Shown piece after piece: positions 8,852-25,178 of a DNA stretch of 64,000 nt. Every line of letters starts with the position of its first letter. The first letter of the stretch is position 1. Source of the stretch: Salmonella phage vB_SenS-3; the sequence record OR896822.1. One strand, written 5' to 3'. A program made the translations under genes and the position numbers. The notes below the pieces were generated by a model. That model was not told the DNA's origin and did not search any database. It saw only the letters and a list, made by a program, of their open reading frames with translations.

Positions 8852-9381
8852 TGATAGCAGCAATCTATGCAACTGGGCCGAATGGGGAGTTCGGCCTCAA
8901 TGGTAAGCTCCCCTGGGGTTCTTTCAAAGAAGAACTAGATATCTTCTATGCTACATTGGATTCTCTGGCACCTGACAATATTATTGTAGGAGCAGGAACT
9001 TGGTTAGCATTCCCTGAGACTCTGCAAAAAAGAATACTAGGAGATTCTGACCTATTTATTTATGCAAATAGACCACTACCGAACTCTATAAGATCAGCTA
9101 CACGCATAAGCAACATTGGATACCGTCTGCCTGATTTTCTCAAGGAAGAGGTAACTGTAGTATTAGGGGGAGCAACTCTGCTTCTTGAAATGTATGTCAA
9201 AAATCATCTAGATATGGCGTATATCTCTACTGTTACTTCAGCCACACCATTATCTGCTGATGTACATCTGCATCATCATATTACTTTAACTAATTCAATG
9301 GCAACTAGAATGGACTATGTGGCAGGACAGAATGCAGATAAAACGCTTTCATTCTTACAAGAATTGGTGATATTTAAATGA
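8851..9381 (+). CDS. dihydrofolate reductase-like protein
   Basis: 176 aa; N-terminal IAAIYATG...LPW resembles DHFR; sits between nrdB and thyA. Confidence 0.65.
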
Positions 9382-17607: not shown

Positions 17608-18237
17608 TAATAGTGGGGTGCCGAAACCACTTATGTAACAACACTGCCGTCCTAGTATAATAGGTATTATTAGGGCTTCACCGCCTGAAGATGTGGGTTC
17701 GAGTCCCACGGTCGGAAAGAGTTGGATAACTGGTGCTTCTAATGGCGAAGCAATCGCAGGCAGTTGCGCACTGCCAAAACCACGCGGTAGTTGGTTCCAG
17801 GCTAACCAACCACTCTTGAAAAGTATATACTACGGTTTTGCTTGTTCAGGAAGCTTCGCATCGAAAATCGGAGGTGCGATTTTATCAGACCGCGTGGAGG
17901 ACGTCTCTCCGTTAAGTGACGAAAAGTGGGACGATTCAGGTAGAGCTGGATATGGAACACCTATACATATGCGGAGTGCGCACAAAGCATATTGCGGTGG
18001 TACTAAACGAAATTAGGAGTCATGACCTGCACAAGTTTAGTATGTCATAACCGATGTACATTCAGTACAAAAACCACTGAAGCTAAGATAGATAGTCACC
18101 TTGACTTAAACTGGAAGATATTGTCTGACGGAAGGGCTGCAGAGCTTAATCTGAGGGGGCTGACCCTACCTACCGTCGGGTATCTTTAAGAGTTCTTACG
18201 AGAACTCTTAAAGATACCTAAACATTAAGGAATACTG
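17608..18237 (+). ncRNA. candidate structured RNA (GC-rich, tRNA-like T-arm at 5' end, several hairpins)
   Basis: No RBS or promoter-proximal start; GTGGGTTCGAGTCCCAC T-arm at 17693-17709 without matching acceptor stem; local GC rise; many stems. Confidence 0.3.
18179..18218 (+). other. perfect 18-bp stem / 4-nt loop hairpin
   Basis: GGTATCTTTAAGAGTTCT / AGAACTCTTAAAGATACC inverted repeat just upstream of the ORF at 18238. Confidence 0.7.
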
Positions 18238-23858: not shown

Positions 23859-24134
23859 ATGTTAAAACGTTTTGCAGCAACTGGTATTGAAAGCTCAGTA
23901 TGTAAATCCTGGGGTGGTTGGGAAGGTGAGATCGAGTGGCTTTATTTCTACAATGTAGAACTTCTTCCAGAGATCAAAGCTCAATGTATTAAGGCTGGTA
24001 TGGCTCCTGATGCTACGGCTGATGTTGAAATCAGCATGAATAAGCTAGAGGGTCGAGTAGTCACTGTTACTGATGAAGGTGAAGAGGTATTCGAACTTCC
24101 ATTCACTTTGAAAGTCACTCCTTCATTTGATTAA
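23859..24134 (+). CDS. hypothetical protein
   Basis: 92 aa; promoter at 23799. Confidence 0.45.
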   Translation: MLKRFAATGIESSVCKSWGGWEGEIEWLYFYNVELLPEIKAQCIKAGMAPDATADVEISMNKLEGRVVTVTDEGEEVFELPFTLKVTPSFD

Positions 24135-24142
24135 CTGATACA

Positions 24143-24183
24143 GCACTTGAGCAAGTTCTTTAAAATTTGACTTGCTCAAGTGC
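24143..24183 (+). promoter_or_regulatory. 13-bp inverted repeat overlapping the -35 of a promoter (candidate operator)
   Basis: GCACTTGAGCAAG ... CTTGCTCAAGTGC flanking TTGACT -35; TATAAT at 24196. Confidence 0.45.
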
Positions 24184-24325
24184 CTTAAAACTTGATATAA
24201 TAGTTACCTAATTTGGAAACATATCTGAATGAGAAGTAATTAAGCGAGTTGCTTTGAGGGATAAAGTCAGGATAGCCGGAAATATTCCACCTTGAGTTTA
24301 ACCGACTTACTTTTCATTCAAATAT

Positions 24326-24406
24326 GGGGGATTGGCTCAGTGGCGACGGCGCCTGGCTGTAGACCGGGTATATCACGCGGAGGTTCGAGTCCTCCATCCC
24401 CCACCA
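24326..24406 (+). tRNA. tRNA-Tyr (anticodon GTA)
   Basis: Acceptor GGGGGAT/ATCCCCC, anticodon loop CTGTAGA, T-loop TTCGAGT, CCA. Confidence 0.6.
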
Positions 24407-24414
24407 AAATTAAT

Positions 24415-24489
24415 GCACCTATCGTCTAATGGTTAGGACATCAGGATTTCAATCTGAGAATTGAACTCCGATTCTCCGTGGGTGTGCCA
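24415..24489 (+). tRNA. tRNA-Glu-like element (anticodon TTC), aberrant T-arm, possible pseudogene
   Basis: D-arm TCGTCTAATGGTTAGGACA and anticodon loop ATTTCAA look Glu-like; T-arm region forms a 6-bp stem with 9-nt loop instead of canonical T-arm. Confidence 0.35.
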
Positions 24490-24498
24490 ATTAATAAT

Positions 24499-24569
24499 TG
24501 GGGTACGCATAGGTTGCTAGTGGGCCTCCAAAACCCATGAAAAGGTTTCGAATACCTTTACCCCTGCCA
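24499..24569 (+). tRNA. tRNA-Trp (anticodon CCA), weak D-arm
   Basis: Anticodon loop CTCCAAA, T-arm AAGGT TTCGAAT ACCTT, acceptor 6/7 pairs, CCA. Confidence 0.5.
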
Positions 24570-24575
24570 ATATTT

Positions 24576-24650
24576 GCACCTTTAGCTGAGATGGATTAGC
24601 GCTTGCCTGAAGAGCTTGAGAGGTTCGTTCAATTCGAACAGGGTGCACCA
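24576..24650 (+). tRNA. tRNA-Phe-like element (GAA loop) with disrupted anticodon stem
   Basis: Perfect acceptor and T-arm (GTTCG TTCAATT CGAAC), loop CTGAAGA, but flanking CTTGC/GCTTG cannot pair. Confidence 0.4.
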
Positions 24651-24667
24651 ATTTGAAGGAGATGCTG

Positions 24668-24940
24668 ATGCATCCTGAAAACTTCTTTATATACTGTACT
24701 AGTCCTTTGCTTAAACGCCGGATTAATAAAGTATATCACTACAGAGCTAGTCAACAGCCTTATGTTTATGATTCTAGTGGAGATCATATTCCACTTGAGC
24801 AACTAGGGACTGATTATATGGTTTTGAAGCACTTTAATGAGGCGAAGATCTCTAGCGTTCATAACCGACAAAACTCTAAAACGTGGTGGCATAAGAAGCG
24901 TAAGAAAGGCATCAAATTTCTTAAAAATGTAGTTGCTTAA
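24668..24940 (+). CDS. hypothetical basic protein
   Basis: AAGGAG RBS, ATG 24668; 3' end overlaps next promoter. Confidence 0.35.
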   Translation: MHPENFFIYCTSPLLKRRINKVYHYRASQQPYVYDSSGDHIPLEQLGTDYMVLKHFNEAKISSVHNRQNSKTWWHKKRKKGIKFLKNVVA

Positions 24941-24961
24941 ATCCTTAAAGTTCTGTATAAT
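24933..24961 (+). promoter_or_regulatory. early-type promoter (TTGCTT N17 TATAAT)
   Basis: Same architecture. Confidence 0.55.
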
Positions 24962-24989
24962 TATTACATAAATTGAACTGGAGAACTAG

Positions 24990-25178
24990 ATGAAAGCACC
25001 TAAACCGAAATTAGTTAAGTTCGACTGCTGTGATACTGAAATCTTATTTACTAAGTTTGGTGAATTTAAGATGTGTGAATGTGGAACATGTGGTTACGAT
25101 CATGGTGATGGATATTATTGCAGAACCCTAGGGCCTTCTGAACTAATCCACTTCTCATGGCCGGAAAGTAAAGAATAA
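24990..25178 (+). CDS. hypothetical Cys-rich small protein
   Basis: 62 aa with CC..C.C..C..C pattern (possible zinc ribbon). Confidence 0.4.
   Translation: MKAPKPKLVKFDCCDTEILFTKFGEFKMCECGTCGYDHGDGYYCRTLGPSELIHFSWPESKE

What the first reader, a model, noticed from the sequence alone, without database searches (positions are those of the whole stretch)
24415..24650. Two tRNA-like genes with intact acceptor/T regions but defective arms
The element at 24576-24650 has a perfect acceptor stem and T-arm and a Phe-type loop CTGAAGA, but the flanking 5-mers (CTTGC / GCTTG) are identical rather than complementary, so no anticodon stem forms. The element at 24415-24489 has Glu-like D and anticodon arms but a 6-bp/9-nt-loop hairpin in place of the T-arm. 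They sit among well-formed tRNAs and may be pseudogenes, non-canonical tRNAs, or tRNA-like decoys or processing signals.
Basis: seen in the sequence. Interest (0 to 1): 0.6.

Follow-up and report, generated by a model that had tools for sequence, protein, structure and literature searches.

The report
Known tRNA-Phe and inversion-broken tRNA-Glu
The interval holds three tRNA genes of the well-known phage T5 tRNA operon: an exact copy of the T5 phenylalanine tRNA (its two odd U-U pairs are a conserved family trait), an overlooked short tryptophan tRNA, and a glutamate tRNA whose T-arm was wrecked in one step by the flipping of nine bases between two short inverted repeats.

Summary
The window is a T5-like Salmonella phage, 100% identical to phage S147 here. 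Positions 24326-24650 are the T5/BF23 operon tRNA-Tyr, Glu, Trp, Phe.

**Phe (24576-24650).** It is base-for-base the annotated T5/BF23 tRNA-Phe(GAA). ARAGORN calls it and Rfam scores it 45.8 bits. Its anticodon stem is C-G, U·U, U·U, G-C, C-G, so a stem does form. In 39 distinct phage tRNA-Phe relatives the three Watson-Crick pairs covary, and the tandem U·U persists on seven different acceptor stems.

**Glu (24415-24489).** It differs from the canonical allele in phages bobsandoy and 2-3 at only five positions. All five are explained by an exact reverse-complement inversion of 9 nt (CGGAGTTCA to TGAACTCCG) between perfect 6-bp inverted repeats GAGAAT/ATTCTC. Rfam falls from 55.6 to 35.2 bits, ARAGORN no longer finds the gene, and the cloverleaf is 8 kcal/mol worse than a misfold. 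It is most likely a recently inactivated tRNA gene, shared by about 11 Salmonella phage isolates.

**Trp (24499-24569).**

The genes are ordinary and known. The inversion and the conserved U·U pairs are modest new details.

The parts
24143..24218 (+). Promoter region homologous to the annotated T5/BF23 early promoter P14a; extended -10 TGATATAAT lies at 24193-24201. It drives the Tyr-Glu-Trp-Phe operon.
   Evidence: About 95% identical to T5 and BF23, where the records annotate 'promoter P14a'. The simple sigma-70 consensus scan found no hit, so the assignment rests on homology only.
24326..24406 (+). tRNA-Tyr(GTA), first gene of the operon (context)
   Evidence: ARAGORN; Rfam 49.9 bits.
24415..24489 (+). 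tRNA-Glu(UUC), 'allele B' of T5-like phages, carrying the T-arm inversion (probable pseudogene). The anticodon is at 24448-24450.
   Evidence: Rfam 35.2 bits, against 55.6 bits for the uninverted allele in bobsandoy. ARAGORN does not find it even at -ps60. It differs from bobsandoy and 2-3 only at 24462, 24464, 24466, 24468 and 24470.
24456..24461 (+). Left arm GAGAAT of the 6-bp inverted repeat (3' end of the anticodon stem plus the variable region)
   Evidence: Sequence; inversion test.
24462..24470 (+). Inverted 9-nt spacer TGAACTCCG, the reverse complement of ancestral CGGAGTTCA. This segment was the 5' strand of the T stem plus T54-Psi55-C56.
   Evidence: Reverse-complementing positions 48-56 of the canonical allele removes all five T-arm differences. 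Only these two orientations occur in all loci examined, with no intermediates.
24471..24476 (+). Right arm ATTCTC of the inverted repeat (T-loop positions 58-60 plus the start of the 3' T stem)
24499..24569 (+). T5-type 71-nt tRNA-Trp(CCA). It has a U1·U72 mismatch, a reduced D arm, a C31·A39 mismatch and a canonical T arm; the anticodon is at 24528-24530.
   Evidence: Homologous to the annotated T5 gene T5t20 tRNAW(CCA) and BF23 tRNAW. ARAGORN finds it only with -ps80 or -mt. No Rfam hit at E<=10.
24576..24650 (+). tRNA-Phe(GAA), identical to T5 T5t19 and BF23 tRNAF; the anticodon is at 24609-24611.
   Evidence: ARAGORN; Rfam 45.8 bits; 100% identity to T5 and BF23 in the alignments.
24602..24618 (+). 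Phe anticodon arm CTTGC-CTGAAGA-GCTTG, with tandem U28·U42 (24603/24617) and U29·U41 (24604/24616)
   Evidence: Rfam alignment marks two non-canonical pairs.

Best explanation
The interval is the distal part of the T5-family early tRNA operon Tyr-Glu-Trp-Phe, transcribed from a P14a-type promoter.

(1) Phe, 24576-24650. This is the ordinary T5 tRNA-Phe(GAA). It folds as a normal cloverleaf whose anticodon stem has three Watson-Crick pairs enclosing a tandem U·U. That feature is inherited and maintained in a wide phage and prophage tRNA-Phe lineage. The gene is most likely a working tRNA.

(2) Glu, 24415-24489. This is a copy of the canonical 'allele B' tRNA-Glu(UUC) of T5-like phages. In it, one replication template-switch (or intrastrand recombination) between the 6-bp inverted repeats GAGAAT/ATTCTC flipped the intervening 9 nt. 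The flipped segment was the 5' strand of the T stem plus T54-Psi55-C56. The event destroyed pairs 51-63 and 53-61 and Psi55, and lengthened the competing hairpin to 8 bp. The transcript is predicted to misfold and no longer act in decoding. It is a young pseudogene carried by a group of Salmonella Epseptimavirus isolates.

(3) Trp, 24499-24569. This is the known structurally reduced T5-type tRNA-Trp(CCA).

Shown: the identities, the inversion, the covariation, and the drops in score and predicted energy. Inferred: the mutational mechanism, loss of function of Glu, and function of Phe.
For: **Source and context.** The window is 100% identical to Salmonella phage S147 and about ten other isolates over 601 nt. 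The same gene order is annotated by experts in BF23 and T5.

**Phe.**
- It is identical to T5 and BF23 tRNA-Phe.
- In 39 distinct relatives, 94% of cloverleaf cells are paired, and the covariation score is 0.613 against 0.137 for shuffles (0 of 500 shuffles reach it).
- Pairs 27-43, 30-40 and 31-39 each show 7 double-sided changes with at most 1 break. Pairs 28-42 and 29-41 are U·U in 19 of 39 sequences each.
- Tandem U·U occurs with 7 different acceptor stems and 7 different T stems. This includes lineages where a flanking pair flipped while U·U stayed: ATTGC/GCTTT and CTTCC/GGTTG.

**Glu.**
- The five T-arm differences from the canonical allele equal an exact reverse complement of 9 nt between perfect 6-bp inverted repeats.
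- bobsandoy and 2-3 differ from the window in Tyr, Glu, Trp and the two spacers flanking Glu by those five positions, plus one substitution in the Tyr-Glu spacer of 2-3 (24409).
- Only the two orientations exist among all loci, with no intermediates.
- Rfam scores 55.6 bits uninverted against 35.2 bits inverted. ARAGORN finds the uninverted allele but not the inverted one.
- The cloverleaf is the minimum-free-energy fold of the canonical allele (-19.7 kcal/mol). In the inverted allele the cloverleaf is -12.6, against a -20.8 misfold that consumes two anticodon-stem pairs.

**Mechanism and precedents.**
- Inverted-repeat spacer inversion by template switching is an established source of multinucleotide mutation (PMC8604942, PMC5453318, PMC8794818).
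- Independent damage to the same slot: a 19-nt duplication in the chee24/pork27 group, and a C50·A64 T-stem mismatch in T5's own tRNA-Glu. The GenBank note says the T5 version cannot be converted to a suppressor, while BF23's intact version can.
Against: - There are no RNA-level data for this phage, so expression, processing and charging of all three RNAs are inferred.
- The inverted Glu still passes the Rfam gathering score (35.2 > 29), and one GenBank record (PMBT36) annotates it as tRNA-Glu.
- All 17 records with the inverted allele are 100% identical over the 75-nt gene, and in the four inverted-allele loci fetched the surrounding Tyr-Trp block is identical too. Neither decay nor purifying selection after the inversion can therefore be measured.
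- The inverted allele is linked to three different downstream Phe alleles and several upstream haplotypes. That pattern requires either recombination or recurrence, and it shows the allele is not strongly counter-selected.
- For Phe, nearest-neighbour thermodynamics prefers a slipped 4-bp anticodon helix by about 5 kcal/mol.
- The T5 record notes that its anticodon-replaced version is not an amber suppressor. This is ambiguous, because PheRS reads the anticodon (my own knowledge).
Confidence: 0.78

Rival explanations
1. The inverted Glu element is still a working, non-canonical tRNA-Glu. The T arm tolerates U49·G65, G50-C64, A51·C63, A52-U62 and C53·C61 with a UCCGAUU loop, and the RNA is processed and charged.
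For: - Rfam tRNA scores 35.2 bits, above the gathering score of 29.
- The acceptor stem, D arm, anticodon arm, discriminator and CCA are untouched.
- U54, C56 and A58 are retained.
- The allele persists in about 11 isolates on several haplotype backgrounds.
- PMBT36 annotates it as tRNA-Glu.
Against: - G53-C61 and Psi55, which are near-universal (my own knowledge of tRNA structure), are lost.
- The score drops 20 bits relative to the parent allele.
- ARAGORN finds nothing even at a 60% threshold.
- The predicted cloverleaf is 8 kcal/mol above a misfold that removes the anticodon loop.
- In T5, a single T-stem mismatch in tRNA-Glu coincides with loss of suppressor activity.
Confidence: 0.1
2. 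The inverted Glu element has been co-opted. It might act as a tRNA-like decoy for a host tRNA-targeting enzyme, as a processing punctuation mark in the polycistronic transcript, or as a reversible flip-flop switch of tRNA-Glu supply.
For: - It sits in an operon whose first gene, tRNA-Tyr, is reported for the T5-like phage SP15 to be overexpressed from a strong promoter and to counter retron and PrrC-type defences (PMC11555353).
- The acceptor stem and CCA are intact.
- Inverted-repeat spacer inversions are in principle reversible.
- The allele is found on several haplotypes.
- T5 records list other 'tRNA-like stable RNAs' of unknown function in the same region.
Against: - It differs from a normal tRNA gene by one mutational event.
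- It occurs on only one Glu/Trp SNP background, consistent with a single recent origin.
- No sequence signature of adaptation follows the event.
- Two other lineages damaged the same gene in unrelated ways, which fits relaxed constraint rather than a new role.
Confidence: 0.06
3. The Phe element is a defective or pseudo tRNA with no usable anticodon stem, or it adopts the slipped helix G26-C40, C27-G39, U28-A38, U29-G37, so that the GAA triplet is not presented as an anticodon.
For: - The ViennaRNA minimum-free-energy fold is the slipped form: -22.8 against -17.7 kcal/mol, with pair probability about 0.69.
- The T5 record notes no amber suppression after anticodon replacement.
- Two variants, L011 (U42C) and L027 (G43A), weaken the canonical register without touching the slipped one.
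Against: - Covariation supports the canonical register: 27-43, 30-40 and 31-39 each show 7 double-sided changes.
- The slipped register has no double-sided changes and 7-15 breaks per pair. Columns 26, 37 and 38 were fixed by the search pattern, which limits this comparison.
- L074 (ATTGC/GCTTT) and L084 (CTTCC/GGTTG) keep the canonical pairs and break the slipped ones.
- Acceptor and T stems covary strongly across the family, which implies selection on a tRNA fold.
- The sequence is invariant across nearly all T5-like loci examined.
Confidence: 0.08
4. The five Glu T-arm differences arose by independent point substitutions (ordinary pseudogene decay) or by gene conversion from another tRNA, and not by an inversion.
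For: None specific; this is the default assumption when differences are clustered.
Against: - All five derived bases equal the complement of the mirror-position ancestral base, which has chance probability of about (1/3)^5 = 0.004 given five changes.
- The four unchanged positions are exactly the self-complementary mirror pairs.
- The segment is bounded by perfect 6-bp inverted repeats.
- There are no other differences in the rest of Glu, in Tyr or in Trp, and only one in the spacers flanking Glu (24409, phage 2-3).
- No intermediates occur among the loci examined or in the identity bands of 91 records.
Confidence: 0.01

Closest known systems
Bacteriophage T5 tRNA-Phe(GAA), gene T5t19 (NC_005859), and BF23 tRNAF (NC_042564)
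   Same: Identical over all 75 nt including CCA. It holds the same position as the last gene of the Tyr-Glu-Trp-Phe block, upstream of the same small ORF.
   Different: Nothing in the gene itself differs. The window comes from a Salmonella Epseptimavirus rather than from T5.
Canonical 'allele B' tRNA-Glu(UUC) of T5-like phages (for example Salmonella phages bobsandoy NC_092683 and 2-3 MN197465, and MET_P1_100_107)
   Same: Same 75-nt gene, position and flanks; 70 of 75 positions are identical to bobsandoy and 2-3.
   Different: The 9-nt segment 48-56 is reverse-complemented in the window. This removes the T stem and T loop and drops the Rfam score from 55.6 to 35.2 bits.
T5 tRNA-Trp(CCA), gene T5t20, and BF23 tRNAW
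   Same: The same 71-nt reduced-D-arm gene lies between Glu and Phe, with the same anticodon loop CUCCAAA as T5.
   Different: The window has TAG where T5 and BF23 have AAA just 5' of the anticodon stem, turning an A-U into a G·U at the stem end. T5 has C70U. BF23 has ACA in place of CCA.
Inverted-repeat spacer inversion by short-range template switching, also called 'minute hairpin inversions' (PMC8604942; PMC5453318; PMC8794818)
   Same: Short perfect inverted repeats flank a spacer that appears as its exact reverse complement in a close relative. In alignments this shows up as a cluster of apparent substitutions.
   Different: Here the event lies inside a tRNA gene. The repeat arms are formed by chance from the anticodon-stem/variable region and the T-loop/T-stem. 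The mechanism itself (replication slippage or recombination) was not observed.
T5 tRNA-Lys, whose anticodon-stem differences confer resistance to the PARIS nuclease AriB (PMC11464382)
   Same: A T5-family tRNA whose anticodon stem-loop deviates from the host's. For Phe the host stem is GGGGA/UCCCC with an A37 loop, and the phage stem is CUUGC/GCUUG with a G37 loop.
   Different: No nuclease is known here to target tRNA-Phe in these hosts, and no resistance test exists. The resemblance is a lead only.

Membership tests
tRNA (Rfam RF00005): Phe element 24576-24650 | Score at or above the gathering threshold, and detection by a tRNA finder with an anticodon assignment | tested here: met
   45.8 bits against GA 29; ARAGORN calls tRNA-Phe(gaa) at default settings.
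tRNA (Rfam RF00005): Phe element 24576-24650 | Four-arm cloverleaf with a 5-bp anticodon stem and a 7-nt loop containing U33 | tested here: met
   Acceptor 7 pairs (one G·U), D stem 4 pairs, T stem 5 pairs, loop CUGAAGA. The anticodon stem has 3 Watson-Crick pairs plus a tandem U·U. The register is supported by covariation in 39 relatives. The two U·U are non-standard pairs.
tRNA (Rfam RF00005): Phe element 24576-24650 | Expressed, processed and aminoacylated | not testable with these tools
   No RNA data are available. The T5 record only reports a negative amber-suppressor conversion test.
Orthologue of T5 tRNA-Phe (T5t19) | Sequence identity and conserved gene neighbourhood | tested here: met
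   75 of 75 nt identical, with the same Tyr-Glu-Trp-Phe order and the same downstream ORF.
tRNA (Rfam RF00005): Glu element 24415-24489 | Score at or above the gathering threshold | tested here: met
   35.2 bits against GA 29. This is the second lowest of 29 tRNA hits in the cluster.
tRNA (Rfam RF00005): Glu element 24415-24489 | Intact T arm: 5-bp stem with G53-C61, and a T54-Psi55-C56 loop | tested here: not met
   A51·C63 and C53·C61 mismatches, and C at position 55. ARAGORN finds nothing at default, -ps80 or -ps60. The cloverleaf is 8 kcal/mol above the minimum-free-energy fold.
Inverted-repeat spacer (hairpin-loop) inversion | The segment is the exact reverse complement of the homologous segment in close relatives | tested here: met
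   CGGAGTTCA becomes TGAACTCCG, which accounts for all five T-arm differences. These are the only differences from bobsandoy and 2-3 within the gene.
Inverted-repeat spacer (hairpin-loop) inversion | Flanked by inverted repeats able to mediate the switch | tested here: met
   Perfect 6-bp GAGAAT/ATTCTC is present in both alleles.
Inverted-repeat spacer (hairpin-loop) inversion | No stepwise intermediates | tested here: met
   Only the two orientations occur in all loci matched by a degenerate pattern that allows any mixture. The identity bands of 91 phage records are consistent with this.
tRNA pseudogene | Derived from a functional gene, with loss of elements required for function | tested here: met
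   The parent allele is canonical: 55.6 bits, and its minimum-free-energy fold is the cloverleaf. The derived allele loses the T stem and T loop.
tRNA pseudogene | Relaxed selection or decay after inactivation, and lack of a mature product | tested here: inconclusive
   All inverted copies are identical, so there is no divergence to measure. No RNA data are available. There is indirect support from two other independent lesions of the Glu gene in T5 and in the chee24 group.
tRNA-like decoy or processing element | Sequence conservation or function independent of decoding | not testable with these tools
   This needs genetics and RNA analysis. Nothing in the sequence requires it.
T5-type tRNA-Trp (T5t20): element 24499-24569 | Homology and position; CCA anticodon in a 7-nt loop; canonical T arm and acceptor stem | tested here: met
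   Aligned to the T5 and BF23 annotated genes. ARAGORN -ps80 and -mt call tRNA-Trp(cca) of 71 nt. The D arm is reduced, and U1·U72 and C31·A39 are mismatched. There is no Rfam hit.

The most novel reading that the evidence does not exclude
The tandem U28·U42/U29·U41 in the anticodon stem is not a tolerated blemish. On this reading it is a selected hallmark of a widespread phage and prophage tRNA-Phe lineage, found in T5-like phages, a contig the size of Klebsiella phage BIS47, other uncultivated phage contigs and probable Pantoea/Mixta prophages. It would be maintained because it makes the phage tRNA-Phe invisible to a host tRNA-targeting nuclease or modification enzyme that reads the anticodon stem. 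The analogy is the anticodon-stem change that protects T5 tRNA-Lys from PARIS AriB.

A weaker add-on is that the 9-nt Glu inversion is a recurrent, reversible flip, which would explain its presence on several haplotypes.
Probability: 0.2. Interest if true: 0.6.

Novelty: new member of a known kind. Interest (0 to 1): 0.3.

Why it matters
**Annotation.** The result explains why pipelines disagree on the tRNA complement of these phages. S147, falkor and S113 lack an annotated tRNA-Glu, PMBT36 has one, and none of the window's close relatives examined has the T5-type tRNA-Trp annotated. It also warns that clustered 'substitutions' in phage comparisons can be single inversion events.

**Biology.** The tRNA-Glu slot of T5-like phages has been damaged at least three independent ways: a point mismatch in T5, a 19-nt duplication in the chee24 group, and a 9-nt inversion in the S147 group. 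This argues that the phage tRNA-Glu is dispensable, which bears on the debate over codon supplementation versus anti-defence roles for phage tRNAs.

**Lead.** The conserved tandem U·U in phage tRNA-Phe can be tested directly in the current work on tRNA-targeting immunity.

Tried and rejected
- **Slipped Phe helix.** The slipped 4-bp anticodon helix favoured by ViennaRNA was rejected as the functional fold because covariation supports the canonical register.
- **Promoter scan.** The consensus sigma-70/terminator scan of 24050-25050 found nothing. The promoter was placed by homology to the annotated T5/BF23 P14a instead.
- **IMG/VR.** It holds only 4 loci with the Glu allele-B anticodon arm, and none is inverted.
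- **Metagenome scan.** The single scan, with a pattern matching either orientation or any mixture, returned only 2 contigs, both canonical. The age and recurrence of the inversion could therefore not be resolved.
- **Literature.** The eLife paper on phage tRNA anticodon-loop mutations does not mention Phe, Glu, Trp or anticodon stems. The PARIS and retron papers do not treat T5 tRNA-Phe or tRNA-Glu. The classical Scherberg & Weiss paper on T5-coded tRNAs is not held. A search for U-U anticodon-stem mismatches in phage tRNAs found nothing relevant.
- **Minus-strand Rfam hits.** The 'Plastid-ycf2' hits on the minus strand of the tRNAs lie far below their gathering score and are reverse-complement tRNA artefacts.
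- **Coding overlap.** Small ORFs overlapping the tRNAs, and a 'hypothetical protein' annotated there in vB_SenS-3, were not pursued as coding. They lie on tRNA genes in a record that lists only hypothetical proteins across the Tyr-Phe interval.
- **Fold z-scores.** Minimum-free-energy z-scores of the three RNAs are unremarkable, at -0.5 to -1.4.
Full report
**What the window is.** A 601-nt query around the finding is 100% identical to Salmonella phage S147 and about ten other Epseptimavirus isolates, and it matches 438 T5-like phage records in all. ARAGORN finds 28 tRNA genes between 17.6 and 31.6 kb, and Rfam finds 29 tRNA hits there. The finding lies in the block that the expert-annotated records of BF23 (NC_042564) and T5 (NC_005859) describe as promoter P14a, tRNA-Tyr, tRNA-Glu, tRNA-Trp, tRNA-Phe and a small ORF. 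The region upstream of the window's Tyr gene is about 95% identical to T5/BF23 P14a and its leader. A simple consensus promoter scan gave no hit.

**Check of the observation.** Both elements are real. Rfam's tRNA model scores 45.8 bits for 24576-24647 and 35.2 bits for 24415-24486, against a gathering score of 29.

- The D and anticodon arms are Glu-type, with anticodon UUC.
- The T stem in the normal register has two mismatches (A51·C63, C53·C61).
- Position 55 is C.
- There is a perfect 6-bp hairpin GAGAAT/ATTCTC with a 9-nt loop.

For the Phe element the loop, acceptor stem and T arm are as described. The flanking 5-mers are another matter. ARAGORN calls the gene tRNA-Phe(gaa) at default settings.

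**The Phe gene.**
- It is identical, base for base, to the T5 and BF23 tRNA-Phe genes.
- I collected relatives from IMG/VR with a pattern that fixes the D-arm end, the loop and the variable region but leaves both anticodon-stem strands free. This gave 39 distinct 72-nt sequences.
- On the standard cloverleaf, 94% of cells are paired and the covariation score is 0.613 against 0.137 for shuffles (0 of 500 reach it).
- All seven acceptor pairs and three of five T-stem pairs show compensatory changes.
- In the anticodon stem, pairs 27-43, 30-40 and 31-39 each have 7 double-sided changes and at most 1 break.
- Pairs 28-42 and 29-41 are standard and covarying in about half the sequences, and U·U in 19 of 39 each.
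- Sixteen distinct sequences carry the tandem U·U, with seven different acceptor stems and seven different T stems. Two of these lineages replaced a flanking pair by a double substitution while U·U stayed: ATTGC/GCTTT and CTTCC/GGTTG.
- ViennaRNA prefers a slipped 4-bp helix for the single sequence (-22.8 against -17.7 kcal/mol). That register shows no compensatory change and many breaks, with the caveat that three of its columns were fixed by my pattern.
- The exact anticodon arm occurs in only 3 of 185,579 species genomes (two Pantoea and one Mixta). In two of the three it lies next to a tRNA-Asn, so these are probably prophages.
- The host E. coli tRNA-Phe has a fully paired stem GGGGA/UCCCC and an A37 loop.

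I conclude that the Phe element is a genuine, conserved phage tRNA whose two U·U pairs are a family trait.

**The Glu gene.**
- T5-like phages carry several alleles at this slot: a T5/BF23 type, a 'B' type to which the window belongs, and a covaried B' type.
- The B allele in MET_P1_100_107, bobsandoy and 2-3 has a perfect T arm, CGGAG-TTCAATT-CTCCG.
- Within the gene, the window differs from bobsandoy and 2-3 only at 24462, 24464, 24466, 24468 and 24470. Tyr, Trp and the Glu-Trp spacer are identical, and the Tyr-Glu spacer differs only by a single substitution in 2-3 (24409).
- Reverse-complementing gene positions 48-56 of the canonical allele (CGGAGTTCA to TGAACTCCG) reproduces the window exactly. 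The segment is bounded by the perfect inverted repeats GAGAAT and ATTCTC.
- The four unchanged positions are the mirror-complementary ones. Given five changes, the chance that all match the mirror complement is about 0.004.
- A degenerate pattern that would match any mixture of the two states found only the two pure orientations.

The 'hairpin in place of the T arm' is therefore the inverted repeat that mediated a spacer inversion. This is a known outcome of short-range template switching (PMC8604942, PMC5453318, PMC8794818).

Consequences of the inversion:
- Rfam falls from 55.6 bits (bobsandoy) to 35.2 bits.
- ARAGORN detects the canonical allele but not the inverted one, even at a 60% threshold.
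- The canonical RNA's minimum-free-energy fold is the cloverleaf (-19.7 kcal/mol). In the inverted RNA the cloverleaf is -12.6, against -20.8 for a fold with an 8-bp GAGAAUUG/CGAUUCUC hairpin that takes two pairs from the anticodon stem.

**Distribution of the inversion.** Of 91 phage records with allele B, 17 (about 11 isolates, all Salmonella phages from several laboratories) carry the inverted form, and all are 100% identical over the gene. Another 63 carry the canonical form, which pipelines annotate as tRNA-Glu. All inverted copies share one Glu/Trp SNP background but are linked to three different Phe alleles and different upstream haplotypes. This fits one origin followed by recombination, and it shows the allele is not strongly selected against. 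Recurrence cannot be excluded.

**Other damage to the Glu slot.** The chee24/pork27 group has a 19-nt tandem duplication inside allele B. T5's own tRNA-Glu differs from BF23's by a C50·A64 T-stem mismatch. The GenBank notes say the BF23 version can be converted to an effective amber suppressor and the T5 version cannot. Together these point to relaxed constraint on the phage tRNA-Glu.

**The Trp gene.** Positions 24499-24569 align with the annotated 71-nt T5 tRNA-Trp(CCA) and BF23 tRNAW. It has the following features:
- A U1·U72 mismatch above six acceptor pairs.
- A much reduced D arm.
- An anticodon stem with C31·A39.
- Loop CUCCAAA.
- A canonical T arm and GCCA end.

Default ARAGORN and Rfam miss it. 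ARAGORN finds it at -ps80 or in mitochondrial mode. The recent BF23 genome paper, which used ARAGORN, accordingly reports no tRNA-Trp (PMC10644984). The few variants keep pairing (an A-U to G·U change at the stem end; G3-C70 to G·U in T5), and BF23 has ACA instead of CCA. Whether this RNA functions is unknown.

**How it most likely works.** The four genes are co-transcribed from the P14a-type promoter. For the T5-like phage SP15, the tRNA-Tyr promoter is reported to be strong (PMC11555353).
- Tyr and Phe are matured and used. This is inferred from covariation and conservation.
- Trp is uncertain.
- The inverted Glu transcript probably misfolds and is lost or inert. This is inferred from loss of near-universal T-arm elements, the energy calculation and the T5 precedent.

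**Comparison and novelty.** The Phe and Trp genes are already annotated in T5 and BF23. The Glu gene is a known allele carrying a lesion I did not find described, produced by a known mutational mechanism. The persistent tandem U·U in a broad phage tRNA-Phe lineage was not found in the literature I could search. In light of the PARIS result that an anticodon-stem change protects T5 tRNA-Lys from AriB (PMC11464382), it is a reasonable lead, but it remains untested.

**Verdict.** The finding is largely explained and ordinary, with two modest new details. I score interest at 0.3. The most novel reading not excluded is that the U·U pairs are a selected anti-defence feature; I give it a probability of about 0.2.

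Noticed in passing
window 24499-24569: A third tRNA gene lies between the two reported elements. It is the 71-nt T5-type tRNA-Trp(CCA), with a reduced D arm and U1·U72 and C31·A39 mismatches. Default ARAGORN and Rfam miss it, but it is annotated in T5 and BF23.
   Followed up: partly
window 24205-24325: A roughly 120-nt leader between the P14a-type promoter and tRNA-Tyr is highly conserved with T5 and BF23. It is enclosed by a long inverted repeat, GAATGAGAAGTAA (24227-24239) / TTACTTTTCATTC (24308-24320), which could be a processing stem.
   Followed up: no
window 24326-24406: The window's tRNA-Tyr is an 81-nt allele with a much shorter variable region than the 88-nt T5/BF23 tRNA-Tyr. tRNA-Tyr of T5-like phages is the gene shown to counter retron Eco7 (PMC11555353).
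   Followed up: no
window 17645-17718: ARAGORN calls a 'tRNA-SeC(tca)' here. It has the lowest Rfam tRNA score in the cluster (33 bits), so it may be an opal-reading or degenerate tRNA.
   Followed up: no
L003/L008 (pork27, chee24 group), Glu gene at L003:306-399: There is a 19-nt tandem duplication (TTCAATCTGAGAATCGGAG) inside the same tRNA-Glu allele, between the TTCAAT motifs of the anticodon loop and the T loop. This gives a 94-nt gene and is an independent structural lesion of the Glu slot.
   Followed up: partly
L004 (T5) 9258-9334 compared with L001 (BF23) 328-404: T5 tRNA-Glu differs from BF23's by a C50·A64 T-stem mismatch and one D-loop base. The GenBank notes say only the BF23 version can be converted to an amber suppressor.
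   Followed up: partly
L001 (BF23) 414-484: The BF23 gene annotated as tRNA-Trp has ACA where T5 and the window have the CCA anticodon.
   Followed up: no
L043 (S113) and L039, Phe gene; window equivalent 24623-24640: Some Epseptimavirus Phe alleles have T stem GTTGG/CCAAC instead of GTTCG/CGAAC, which is a compensatory double change. The S113 record does not annotate this tRNA-Phe.
   Followed up: partly
L087, L088, L089 (Pantoea sp., Pantoea stewartii, Mixta mediterraneensis chromosomes): Copies of the tandem-U·U tRNA-Phe (acceptor stem GCAAACT) sit in bacterial chromosomes; in L088 and L089 they lie next to a tRNA-Asn, and they are probably in prophages. Default ARAGORN does not call them.
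   Followed up: no
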